Shown: positions 1 to 9,903 of the stretch, one piece after another
Layout: the number at the start of each line of letters is the position of its first letter
Numbering within the stretch: position 1 is the first letter of the stretch
Assembly: GCF_003334315.1 (NCBI RefSeq)
Contig: NZ_QOWR01000021.1
Direction: 5' to 3' (one strand)
DNA from: Escherichia coli
Lineage (GTDB): Bacteria; Pseudomonadota; Gammaproteobacteria; Enterobacterales; Enterobacteriaceae
Length of the DNA: 64,000 nucleotides
Position numbers and translations under genes: made by a program
The notes under the pieces: model-generated
What the model saw: the letters and a program-made list of their open reading frames with translations, nothing else
Databases searched by the model: none
Told to the model about the DNA's origin: nothing

Positions 1-228
1 AGGCAGCACCTGGCACGGCTGGGACGGAAGTCGCTGTCGTTCTCAAAATCGGTGGAGCTGCATGACAAAGTCATCGGGCATTATCTGAACATAAAACACT
101 ATCAGTAAGTTGGAGTCATTACCCGAATTCAGACAAATATAAACAAATCCTGCTCAAAATTAAAAATTCTAACCGGTAAAAGATATTACTTAAACATGTA
201 AATTCACTTTCCTTTAAAAAACAAAAAA

Positions 229-258
229 CCGCCAAAATCAGGCGGTTTTTTGTTGCTG
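229..258 (+). terminator. Rho-independent terminator-like hairpin (aaccgcc..ggcggtt followed by T-run); A-run upstream makes it potentially bidirectional
   Basis: GC stem-loop followed by TTTTTTG read directly from the sequence. Confidence 0.6.
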
Positions 259-389
259 GTCCGGTTCGCGGCCTTTCCAGCAGGTTGTATTACCGTAGTA
301 ATGCAAGCGCGTCTCAGCGGAGACAATACTCGCCAGTAACTCTCTTTTTGTCAAGCAAAAGAGAGTTATTATTGTTCTGTTAGTGTATT

Positions 390-705
390 ATCCACTGCGG
401 CCCTTTCCGCCGTCTCGCAAACGGGCGCTGGCTTTAGGAAAGGATGTTCCGTGGCCGTAAATGCAGGTGTTTCACAGCGCTTGCTATCGCGGCAATATCG
501 CCAGTGGTGCTGTCGTGATGCGGTCTTCGCATGGACCGCACAATGAAGATACGGTGCTTTTGTATCGTACTTATTGTTTCTGGTGCGCTGTTAACCGAGG
601 TAAATAATAACCGGAGTCTCTCCGGCGACAATTTACTGGTGGTTAACAACCTTCAGAGCAGCAAGTAAGCCCGAATGCCGCCCTTTGGGCGGCATATTTT
701 AGATT
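390..705 (+). ncRNA. ryfA: Putative sRNA RyfA region (sseA-sseB intergenic), ending at the terminator hairpin 675-700; 5' end not determined
   Basis: RyfA is known to lie between sseA and sseB, convergent with sseB; strong + strand terminator abuts the sseB stop; no long ORF; boundaries are approximate. Confidence 0.35.
675..700 (+). terminator. Intrinsic terminator (atgccgccc-tttg-ggcggcat then ATTTT) overlapping the sseB stop codon
   Basis: Perfect 9-bp stem plus T-run seen in sequence. Confidence 0.6.
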
Positions 706-8073: not shown

Positions 8074-8313
8074 TGCTCTATAAACTCCGTACATCACTCA
8101 ATGCAAGGAATCAGGCTACCGGCTGGATGTACGACCGTGTTTACGGAGCGCGATACGCCCCGGCCTGATTCTAATATCTTGTTATCTTTAACCTAACTGT
8201 TTCGGGTTTCAGCAAGTTGACAAACTTACGAATCTCCGGGAGCTTACATAAGTAAGTGACCGGAGTGAGTATGTGCAGTCAACGCAGATGCAACACGAAA
8301 CAGGACGGTTAAA

Positions 8314-8802
8314 TTAAGCGCGTAACTTAACGTCGATCGCGTCTTGTATGCGGGTGCGTGGCGCGTCGTGAGTATGCTGACGACCAGACACATCCAGCAC
8401 TTCCTGGTTATTAACCAGTTCGCCTAAAGTAATGTTGTTGAGAAAACCGGTGAGACGGTCGCTCAAATCACGCCACAGCGCGTGGGTCAGGCATTTATCG
8501 CCGCCCTGGCAGCCGCCTTTACCCTGACAACGGGTGGCATCTACAGATTCGTCAACGGCGCTAATCACTTCGCCAACGGCGATGCTGCTGGCATCTTTGC
8601 CTAACAGATAACCACCGCCTGGTCCACGTACGCTGGAAACCAGACCATTTTTACGCAGACGGGAAAACAGTTGTTCCAGATAAGAAAGGGAAATTCCCTG
8701 ACGTTCGGAAATATCAGCCAACGGTACCGGGCCCGCTTCAGAGTTGAGCGCAACGTCAAGCATTGCGGTCACGGCATAGCGCCCTTTAGATGTCAGTCTC
8801 AT
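8314..8802 (-). CDS. iscR: Rrf2-family [2Fe-2S] transcriptional regulator IscR
   Basis: 162 aa, Rrf2 HTH and Cys cluster. Confidence 0.95.
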
Positions 8803-8884
8803 GTCTTACTTCACCTCAAACTCGCCCCTGCCCGGGGTTTTTTATTGTAAAAGTGGGGGTATTGCATAGCAGGGTCAAGTCTGA

Positions 8885-8935
8885 CATTCCCGAGTAAATT
8901 GGTCAACTATTTACTTGACTGATTTAGTCGGGTAT
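8885..8935 (-). promoter_or_regulatory. iscR promoter with two tandem type-1 IscR operator sites
   Basis: Minus strand reads ATACCCGACTAAATCAGTCAAGTAA and TAGTTGACCAATTTACTCGGGAATG, matching the IscR type-1 consensus ATASYYGACTRwwwYAGTCRRSTAT. Confidence 0.6.
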
Positions 8936-8977
8936 TTAACCTTCAGTGCCATTTTTTTATCGTGGCGTTTGTACCTG

Positions 8978-9160
<183 letters not shown>

Positions 9161-9162
9161 TG

Positions 9163-9903
9163 TTATTCGGCCTTGTTACCTTTATTCTGCTGCTCAATAG
9201 AAGCCAGAATCCCGCGCAGGATATTCAACTCCTGGCTTTCCGGGCGCGCACGGGTAAACAGACGGCGCAATTTATTCATCACCTGCCCCGGATGGTTTTC
9301 ACGGATAAAACCGGTTGCCTGCAGCGTTTGTTCCAGATGACCATAAAAACGCTCCAGATCATCGACCAGCGGATACGGCGTCTCTTCATGCTCGACCTGC
9401 TCGCCGTTTTCCTGAGTTGCCAGCCAGGCCATGCGCACTTCATAGGCAATAACCTGAACCGCCATCGCCAGGTTCAGCGAGCTGTATTCCGGGTTAGCCG
9501 CAATCGCGACATGATAATGGCATTTCTGCAACTCTTCATTGGTCAGGCCGACACGTTCGCGACCAAAAACCAGCGCCACCGGGGTATTTGCCGCTTCAGC
9601 AACGCTTTTCAAACCGCATTCGCGCGGGTCGAGCATCGGCCACGGCAGCGTGCGGGAACGTGCGCTGGTGCCCACCACCAGGCTACAACCGGCTAACGCT
9701 TCGTCGAGCGTATCGACGATGTGAGCATTACCAATCACATCGCTGGCCCCCGCCGCCAGGGCAATCGCCTGGGAGTCAGGTTTCACCAGTGGATTAACCA
9801 GCCACAGATTGGTTAATCCCATTGTTTTCATGGCACGGGCAACAGAACCCATATTGCCGGTGTGTGACGTCTCCACCAGCACAATTCGAATATTTTGCAG
9901 CAT
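9163..9903 (-). CDS. trmJ: tRNA (cytidine/uridine-2'-O)-methyltransferase TrmJ (SpoU family)
   Basis: 246-aa ORF recognised as TrmJ. Confidence 0.93.

What the first reader, a model, noticed from the sequence alone, without database searches (positions are those of the whole stretch)
8885..8935. Two tandem IscR type-1 operators in the iscR promoter
The minus strand upstream of iscR reads ATACCCGACTAAATCAGTCAAGTAA followed by TAGTTGACCAATTTACTCGGGAATG. Both fit the type-1 IscR motif and are consistent with holo-IscR autorepression of the isc operon.
Basis: partly seen in the sequence, partly recalled or inferred. Interest (0 to 1): 0.25.

Follow-up and report, generated by a model that had tools for sequence, protein, structure and literature searches.

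The report
Known IscR operators in iscR promoter

Summary
Confirmed and ordinary. The window is E. coli chromosome. Its iscRSUA-hscBA-fdx operon lies on the minus strand, with the iscR CDS at 8802..8314.

Two abutting 25-bp sites lie upstream of iscR:
- Site A, 8935..8911: ATACCCGACTAAATCAGTCAAGTAA, 1 mismatch to the published type-1 consensus ATASYYGACTRWWWYAGTCRRSTAT.
- Site B, 8910..8886: ATAGTTGACCAATTTACTCGGGAAT, 3 mismatches.

These are the only matches with 6 or fewer mismatches in the 64 kb; the next best has 7, and 0 are expected by chance. A weight matrix built only from distant orthologues scores them 34.3 and 30.3 bits. The next best in the window is 4.1, and the shuffle maximum is 15.3.

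In 77 of 80 species from Enterobacterales, Vibrionales and Alteromonadales the two sites abut exactly. Conservation starts at site A and ends just after an extended -10. Site B contains the -35 hexamer (TTGACC) and runs to the TG of the extended -10 (TGtCAGACT). Site A covers the region upstream of -35.

A 2025 Kiley-lab paper measured [2Fe-2S]1+-IscR binding to the "iscRB" 30-mer at Kd 22 nM; that oligo is 29/30 identical to the sequence here.

Mechanism: holo-IscR occludes RNA polymerase, giving a negative feedback loop. Already known; low interest.

The parts
8911..8935 (-). IscR type-1 operator site A (iscRA): ATACCCGACTAAATCAGTCAAGTAA. Half-sites are CCGAC (8931..8927, minus strand) and TTGAC (8915-8919, plus strand). 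It lies upstream of the -35 hexamer. MG1655 coordinates 2662240-2662264.
   Evidence: 1 mismatch to the consensus. 34.3 bits with the orthologue-trained weight matrix. A site is present exactly 25 bp upstream of the start of site B in 77 of 80 species. Mean information content is 1.23 bits per position, against 0.20 in the 35 nt upstream.
8886..8910 (-). IscR type-1 operator site B (iscRB): ATAGTTGACCAATTTACTCGGGAAT. Half-sites are TTGAC (8906..8902, minus strand, also the -35 element) and CCGAG (8890-8894, plus strand). MG1655 coordinates 2662215-2662239.
Evidence: 30.3 bits. It is the best-conserved block of the intergenic region, at 1.49 bits per position. It is 29/30 identical to the iscRB oligo that bound [2Fe-2S]1+-IscR with Kd 22 nM (PMC12594620). 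It is in the same register as the DNase-I-footprinted P. aeruginosa site B, ATAGTTGACCTAATTACTCGGATAA (PMC6599224).
8901..8906 (-). -35 hexamer TTGACC of the iscR promoter, embedded in the left half of site B.
   Evidence: 5 of 6 match to TTGACA, read directly from the sequence. Nearly invariant in 81 sequences. The 17-bp spacing to the -10 hexamer is inferred.
8878..8886 (-). Extended -10 element TGtCAGACT. The TG is at 8886-8885, and its T is the last base of site B. The hexamer CAGACT is at 8883..8878.
   Evidence: In the site-B-anchored alignment of 81 sequences, the TG and the A and T at hexamer positions 2 and 6 are nearly invariant. Conservation stops right after the element: 1.17 bits per position over this block, then 0.16. 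The hexamer matches TATAAT at only 3 of 6 positions, which is why the strict promoter scan listed nothing. The assignment is inferred, not mapped.
8868..8871 (-). Expected transcription start of iscRSUA-hscBA-fdx (an inferred range).
   Evidence: This range is 7-10 nt downstream of the -10 hexamer. In P. aeruginosa the homologous site B spans -42 to -18 relative to a primer-extension-mapped start (PMC3899308 and PMC6599224), which would put +1 near 8868 here. Not tested here.
8314..8802 (-). iscR coding sequence (162 aa), the regulator that binds the operators and the first gene of the repressed operon.
   Evidence: ORF list. RefSeq annotation of a 100% identical region. NCBIfam IscR equivalogs. 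E43, C92, C98, C104 and H107 are present. PDB entries 4HF1, 4HF2 and 4CHU are E. coli IscR.

Best explanation
The 50 bp at 8935..8886 (minus strand) are the two type-1 operators, site A and site B, of the E. coli iscR promoter.

How it works:
- When the Isc machinery has loaded IscR with its [2Fe-2S] cluster (the reduced, 1+ state), one IscR dimer binds each 25-bp imperfect palindrome.
- Site B contains the -35 hexamer and covers the whole spacer up to the TG of an extended -10. Site A covers the region just upstream of -35.
- Bound IscR therefore keeps sigma-70 RNA polymerase off the promoter and represses iscRSUA-hscBA-fdx.
- When Fe-S demand rises, or the cluster is oxidised or lost, IscR no longer binds type-1 sites. 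The operon, including iscR itself, is then derepressed. This is a homeostatic negative feedback loop.

What is shown here: the sequence match, its uniqueness in the window, its conservation, and its overlap with the conserved promoter elements.

What comes from the literature: cluster-dependent binding and repression.

What is inferred: the exact transcription start and the steric occlusion.
For: Sequence match and uniqueness:
- The only two consensus matches in 64 kb have 1 and 3 mismatches, with 0 expected by chance.
- The orthologue-trained matrix gives 34.3 and 30.3 bits, against 4.1 for the next best and 15.3 for the shuffle maximum.
- The same matrix also finds the type-1 sites upstream of erpA (-89 from the ATG, 15.9 bits) and nfuA (-37, 28.3 bits) in MG1655. 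These are known IscR targets with type-1 sites (PMC4055776; an erpA fragment is used as 'type 1 site DNA' in PMC12594620).

Conservation:
- All 80 iscR loci from three orders have site B, and 77 have site A exactly 25 bp upstream.
- Conservation is sharply bounded: 0.20 bits upstream, 1.23 in A, 1.49 in B, 1.17 over the extended -10, and 0.16 afterwards.
- The 86-nt promoter is single-copy in 5425 of 5426 complete E. coli genomes, and at least 99% identical in 5348. It is identical to MG1655.

The regulator: the cognate IscR, with its cluster ligands and E43, is encoded immediately downstream.

Literature:
- Type-1 motifs in the isc promoter bind only [2Fe-2S]-IscR, and all known type-1 promoters are repressed (PMC12594620; PMC8561392).
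- The iscRB oligo binds with Kd 22 nM, and binding is lost on cluster oxidation.
- P. aeruginosa has homologous A and B sites, DNase I footprinted at -67 to -18, and site-B mutations abolish repression (PMC6599224).
Against: Nothing found contradicts this. Four limits apply.
- The primary E. coli footprint and mutagenesis papers could not be read here. The E. coli footprint coordinates I recall (A at -65 to -41, B at -40 to -16) therefore rest on memory plus the P. aeruginosa homologue.
- The strict sigma-70 scan found no promoter, because the -10 hexamer matches at only 3 of 6 positions.
- The published iscRB oligo differs from the genome at one central spacer base (ATTTT versus AATTT).
- A published minor 'site C' could not be located with confidence (best candidate -1.1 bits).
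Confidence: 0.97

Rival explanations
1. The sites are type-2 IscR sites, or general IscR sites bound by apo-IscR. Regulation would then track apo-IscR levels rather than cluster-loaded IscR.
For: IscR recognises two motif classes, and apo-IscR is an active regulator at type-2 sites (PMC8561392).
Against: The best match to the type-2 consensus AWARCCCYTSnGTTTGMnGKKKTKWA anywhere in 8780-8960 has 8 or more mismatches of 26. Both sites carry the TTGAC / CCGAC-type half-sites that define type 1 (and directly visible in the sequence). The literature says apo-IscR is inactive at the isc promoter.
Confidence: 0.01
2. The conservation reflects only promoter elements (an UP element, -35, spacer and extended -10), not an operator. 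The palindromic look would be incidental.
For: The TTGAC of site B is the -35 hexamer. Site A is AT-rich at its flanks and lies where an UP element would be.
Against: Sigma-70 promoters do not constrain spacer sequence, yet the right half of site B (ACTCGGGAAT) is nearly invariant. Site A keeps GAC...GTC cores with dyad symmetry at a fixed 25-bp offset in 77 of 80 species. The same matrix also finds the erpA and nfuA sites at unrelated promoters. Direct binding of the site-B oligo is published.
Confidence: 0.01
3. Another Rrf2-family regulator, such as NsrR, or an unrelated factor is the main protein bound here.
For: Rrf2 proteins bind similar-sized AT-flanked palindromes. IscR scores weakly against the NsrR, RirA and CymR family models.
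Against: The best identity of the promoter to an hmp-type NsrR site is 10 of 23, which is background level; that NsrR sequence was recalled from memory. The sites always accompany iscR itself across three orders. Published binding is by IscR.
Confidence: 0.01

Closest known systems
E. coli K-12 iscR promoter sites A and B (iscRA and iscRB), type-1 IscR operators (Giel et al. 2006 and 2013; Nesbit et al. 2009; as cited in PMC12594620 and PMC6599224)
   Same: The sequence is identical: the 158 nt upstream of the iscR ATG match MG1655 exactly. The position, gene context and regulator are the same. The published iscRB oligo matches at 29 of 30 bases.
   Different: Nothing in the operators differs. 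The strain is not MG1655. It has two rather than three 91-nt REP units upstream and a 129-nt ERIC-like insertion downstream of iscR. Both lie outside the operators.
P. aeruginosa PAO1 iscR promoter sites A and B (PMC3899308, PMC6599224)
   Same: There are two abutting 25-bp type-1 sites. Site B, ATAGTTGACCTAATTACTCGGATAA, is in the same register and 20/25 identical to the E. coli site B. It overlaps the -35 to -10 region. The DNase I footprint spans -67 to -18, and binding needs the [2Fe-2S] cluster.
   Different: In P. aeruginosa site B is the primary site and helps load the weak site A. The E. coli sites are reported to bind IscR independently, and E. coli site A is the better consensus match (1 mismatch). 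E. coli is also reported to have a minor site C.
Type-1 sites of erpA (yadR) and nfuA (yhgI) in E. coli
   Same: They share the same 25-bp motif. They score 15.9 and 28.3 bits with the same matrix, at -89 and -37 from the ATG. They are holo-IscR-repressed Fe-S carrier genes.
   Different: Each is a single site rather than an abutting pair.
Type-2 IscR sites (hyaA, sufA, ydiU)
   Same: The same regulator binds them, and they also overlap the -35 region.
   Different: The half-sites differ (CCxYA, symmetric). They are bound by both apo- and holo-IscR, and can activate or repress. The iscR promoter does not match this motif.

Membership tests
IscR type-1 operator | Match to the 25-bp consensus ATASYYGACTRWWWYAGTCRRSTAT | tested here: met
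   Site A has 1 mismatch and site B has 3. The next best 25-mer in 64 kb has 7, and there were 0 matches in 100 shuffles. The consensus text was verified in PMC6599224 and PMC3899308.
IscR type-1 operator | [quoted passage not shown] | tested here: met
   Site A has CCGAC and TTGAC. Site B has TTGAC and CCGAG. Both have ATA and TAA/AAT flanks (read against the definition in PMC8561392).
   The matrix was built from 89 distinct sites of species whose IscR is at most about 82% identical, with Escherichia and close relatives excluded. It gives 34.3 and 30.3 bits, against 4.1 for the next best and 15.3 for the shuffle maximum. This is my own matrix, not the published one.
IscR type-1 operator | Lies in, and overlaps the core elements of, a promoter repressed by IscR | tested here: met
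   Site B contains the -35 hexamer TTGACC and ends at the TG of a conserved extended -10. Site A lies directly upstream. The transcription start is inferred, not mapped here.
IscR type-1 operator | Conserved upstream of orthologous iscR genes | tested here: met
   All 80 loci have site B with 5 or fewer mismatches, and 77 of 80 have site A at exactly 25 bp.
IscR type-1 operator | Bound by [2Fe-2S]-IscR and not by apo-IscR | not testable with these tools
   From the literature only: the iscRB 30-mer, 29/30 identical to this sequence, binds with Kd 22 nM, rising above 1000 nM after cluster oxidation (PMC12594620). Apo-IscR is inactive at isc.
IscR type-1 operator | DNase I footprint of IscR coincides with the sites in E. 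coli | not testable with these tools
   The primary papers are not held. The homologous P. aeruginosa footprint, -67 to -18, covers both sites.
IscR type-1 operator | The cognate regulator is present, with the Cys92/Cys98/Cys104/His107 ligands and Glu43 | tested here: met
   All five residues are present. NCBIfam IscR equivalogs score above their cut-offs.
IscR type-2 operator | Match to AWARCCCYTSnGTTTGMnGKKKTKWA | tested here: not met
   The best match in 8780-8960 has 8 mismatches of 26. The best anywhere in the window has 5, at an unrelated place.

The most novel reading that the evidence does not exclude
The two sites abut exactly (25 + 25 bp, no spacer) in 77 of 80 species across three orders. 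Several Erwinia and Pantoea species have added a third abutting 25-mer. This could mean that IscR dimers form a fixed, contacting head-to-head array on the promoter, that is, obligate higher-order cooperative assembly. That would differ from the independent binding reported for E. coli.
Probability: 0.12. Interest if true: 0.3.

Novelty: already known. Interest (0 to 1): 0.04.

Why it matters
The sites are the cis-acting core of the feedback loop that matches Fe-S cluster synthesis to demand in E. coli. That loop is a textbook example of a cofactor-sensing repressor. Confirming it here adds no new biology.

Tried and rejected
- Primary E. coli papers. I tried to read Giel 2013, Nesbit 2009, Rajagopalan 2013, Schwartz 2001, Mettert and Kiley 2014 and 2024, and Fleischhacker 2012. 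None is held. A literal search for the two site sequences found no paper; only the consensus string was found.
- Promoter scan. The built-in sigma-70 scan found no promoter in 8700-9250. The -10 hexamer CAGACT is too weak for its rule, so I assigned the promoter from the phylogenetic footprint instead.
- A flaw in my first matrix and anchored alignment. The anchor picked site A instead of site B in the loci where A matched the consensus better. This blurred the profile and put a few non-site sequences into the training set. I redid both with site B defined as the most downstream site. The conclusions did not change and the contrast became sharper.
- Site C. The best downstream candidate is ATACCCCCACTTTTACAATAAAAAA(C) near 8862..8837, which scores only -1.1 bits. 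I cannot confirm that it is the published site C.
- Type-2 motif and NsrR-type site. Neither matches.

Full report
**Observation.** The iscR ORF starts at 8802 and runs to 8314 on the same strand. It is followed by iscS, iscU, iscA, hscB and hscA.

**Source.** The region is E. coli. A 501-nt query around the promoter is 100% identical to many RefSeq E. coli chromosomes, where the flanking genes are annotated trmJ and iscR. The 158 nt upstream of the iscR ATG are identical to K-12 MG1655. There the sites are at 2662240-2662264 (A) and 2662215-2662239 (B).

**Register.** I scored each 25-mer against the type-1 consensus ATASYYGACTRWWWYAGTCRRSTAT. I verified the wording of that consensus in PMC6599224 and PMC3899308.
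- Site A has 1 mismatch.

The two sites therefore abut with no spacer. This register is also that of the footprinted P. aeruginosa site B (ATAGTTGACCTAATTACTCGGATAA). It is centred in the 30-mer iscRB oligo that the Kiley laboratory uses.

**Chance.**
- With up to 3 mismatches the consensus hits only these two places in the 64 kb on both strands. It found none in 100 dinucleotide-preserving shuffles.
- The mismatch distribution over all 25-mers is 1, 3, then nine at 7.
- I built a weight matrix from 89 distinct orthologous sites, taken only from species whose IscR is at most about 82% identical. It gives 34.3 bits (A) and 30.3 bits (B). The next best in the window is 4.1, and the largest value in 100 shuffles is 15.3.
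- The same matrix picks out single sites upstream of erpA (-89 from the ATG, 15.9 bits) and nfuA (-37, 28.3 bits) in MG1655. Both are known holo-IscR targets with type-1 sites.

**Conservation.**
- A scan of one genome per species returned 80 iscR loci from Enterobacterales, Vibrionales and Alteromonadales.
- Every locus has a site B with 5 or fewer mismatches. In 77 of 80 the best upstream site starts exactly 25 bp before it.
- Outside the promoters, about 249,000 background positions in the same loci contain only three 25-mers with 5 or fewer mismatches.
- In an ungapped alignment anchored on site B, mean information content is 0.20 bits per position in the 35 nt upstream, 1.23 in A, 1.49 in B, 1.17 in the next 9 nt, and 0.16 beyond.
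- Within E. coli, the 86-nt promoter is single-copy in 5425 of 5426 complete genomes, and at least 99% identical in 5348.

**Promoter architecture (inferred).**
- TTGACC at 8906..8901 is a 5/6 match to the -35 hexamer and lies inside the left half of site B.
- Seventeen bp downstream is CAGACT (8883..8878), preceded by TG at 8886-8885.
- Across the 81 sequences, the TG and the A and T at hexamer positions 2 and 6 are nearly invariant, and conservation ends there. This is the signature of an extended -10 promoter with a weak hexamer. It also explains why the strict scan found nothing.
- The start should lie near 8868-8871. In P. aeruginosa, the homologous site B spans -42 to -18 from a mapped start.

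Site B thus covers the promoter from just upstream of -35 to the TG. Site A covers the region upstream of -35.

**Half-site arrangement.** The half-sites read [CCGAC...GTCAA][TTGAC...CTCGG]. The pair is therefore a 50-bp imperfect palindrome (A versus the reverse complement of B: 19/25 identical).

**Mechanism.**
- IscR encoded here has E43, C92, C98, C104 and H107. It matches the IscR equivalog models and the crystallised E. coli protein.
- According to the literature I could read, type-1 sites are bound only by cluster-containing IscR, and all known type-1 promoters are repressed (PMC8561392).
- The isc promoter carries type-1 motifs, and IscR is negatively autoregulated (PMC12594620).
- [2Fe-2S]1+-IscR binds the iscRB oligo with Kd 22 nM, rising above 1000 nM after cluster oxidation.
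- In P. aeruginosa, mutating site B abolishes both the footprint and repression.

Combined with the overlap shown above, the best explanation is steric exclusion of RNA polymerase by holo-IscR. This closes a feedback loop between Fe-S supply and isc expression. The binding and repression steps come from the literature. The occlusion geometry and the start site are inferred.

**Rivals.**
- A type-2 (apo-IscR) reading fails the motif test, with 8 or more mismatches of 26.
- A 'promoter elements only' reading does not explain the invariant right half of site B within the spacer, or the dyad cores of site A at a fixed offset.
- An NsrR-type site is not present: 10/23 identity to a sequence recalled from memory.

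**Novelty.** None. This is the characterised operator pair of the iscR promoter, in a sequence identical to the strain in which it was characterised.

**Caveats.**
- The primary E. coli footprinting papers are not in the library. The E. coli footprint coordinates are therefore not verified here.
- The published minor site C (mentioned in PMC6599224) could not be located with confidence.
- My first anchored analyses had an anchoring error, which I corrected.

**Seen in passing.**
- A 129-nt ERIC-like insertion lies directly after the iscR stop codon. It is absent from MG1655 and present in 490 of 5426 complete E. coli genomes. It sits just upstream of the Rfam iscRS stability element.
- There are two REP units between trmJ and iscR, against three in MG1655, and an Rfam naRNA4 match.
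- Some Erwinia and Pantoea species have a third abutting type-1-like site.
- Some Vibrio species have type-1-like sites upstream of trmJ.
- One Alteromonas species has a strong type-1 site downstream of iscS.

Noticed in passing
window 8185-8313 (minus strand, directly after the iscR stop codon): A roughly 129-nt insertion relative to MG1655 makes the iscR-iscS intergenic region 240 nt instead of 111 nt. It resembles an ERIC/IRU element: 18 of 22 identity to each of the ERIC1R and ERIC2 primer sequences, which I recalled from memory. The full-length region is found in 490 of 5426 complete E. coli genomes, including ATCC 8739. It sits between iscR and the Rfam 'iscR stability element' (RF01517, 8184..8075), in the part of the mRNA where RyhB-dependent differential decay of iscRSUA is set. 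Whether it alters that control is unknown.
   Followed up: partly
window 8979-9160 (trmJ-iscR intergenic region): There are two tandem 91-nt REP/BIME-type units, 95% identical to each other, where MG1655 has three. Rfam naRNA4 (RF02564, nucleoid-associated ncRNA) matches 9101..9030. The window is therefore not from MG1655.
   Followed up: partly
window 8837-8862 (minus strand, iscR 5' UTR): A weak type-1-like 25-mer beginning ATACCCCCAC scores -1.1 bits with the matrix. It is the only candidate I found for the 'minor, non-conserved site C' that PMC6599224 attributes to E. coli. Not verified.
   Followed up: partly
window 8824-8838: The hairpin CCCCGGGCAGGGG lies in the iscR 5' UTR. On the plus strand it reads as a terminator-like stem followed by a T run. 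It falls in a stretch of about 41 nt that lengthens the leader in the Escherichia/Citrobacter/Enterobacter group: site B ends about 80-110 nt before the ATG there, against about 40 nt in Yersinia, Serratia and Vibrio.
   Followed up: no
L033, L037, L048, L049 (and, more weakly, L045), about -140 to -111 from the iscR ATG: Erwinia and Pantoea species carry a third type-1-like 25-mer, ATAGTTGAGT...CCAGGTTAA (6-7 mismatches), abutting site A at exactly -50 from the start of site B. This makes an array of three sites.
   Followed up: partly
L059, L060, L064, L072, L079 at about 577-616: In several Vibrio species a type-1-like site, for example GGACCTGACCATTTTACTCAGGTAT, lies just upstream of the trmJ homologue (64% identical to E. 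coli TrmJ). It scores 12-22 bits with the first, uncorrected matrix. This suggests IscR control of trmJ there. No such site precedes trmJ in this window.
   Followed up: partly
L071 3267-3291 (Alteromonas lipotrueae): A strong type-1 site, ATATTTGAGTGAAATACTCAGGTAT, has 3 mismatches and scores 30.9 bits with the first, uncorrected matrix. It lies about 70 nt downstream of the iscS ORF and is followed directly by TATATAAT, which may mark an internal IscR-controlled promoter. It was not seen in the other Alteromonas locus, L070.
   Followed up: no
PMC12594620 methods versus window 8883-8912: The published iscRB oligo reads ...GACCATTTTAC..., whereas the genome (this window and MG1655) reads ...GACCAATTTAC.... 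This is a one-base difference in the central W-rich spacer. It may be a deliberate variant or a misprint.
   Followed up: no
window 92-700, 37773-37920, 47100-47176, 50589-50803, 53586-54417, 60884-60926: Other Rfam matches in the window are IS128, ryfA, GlmY, ohsC, rncO, AsrC and ES036. All are expected for this part of the E. coli chromosome.
   Followed up: no
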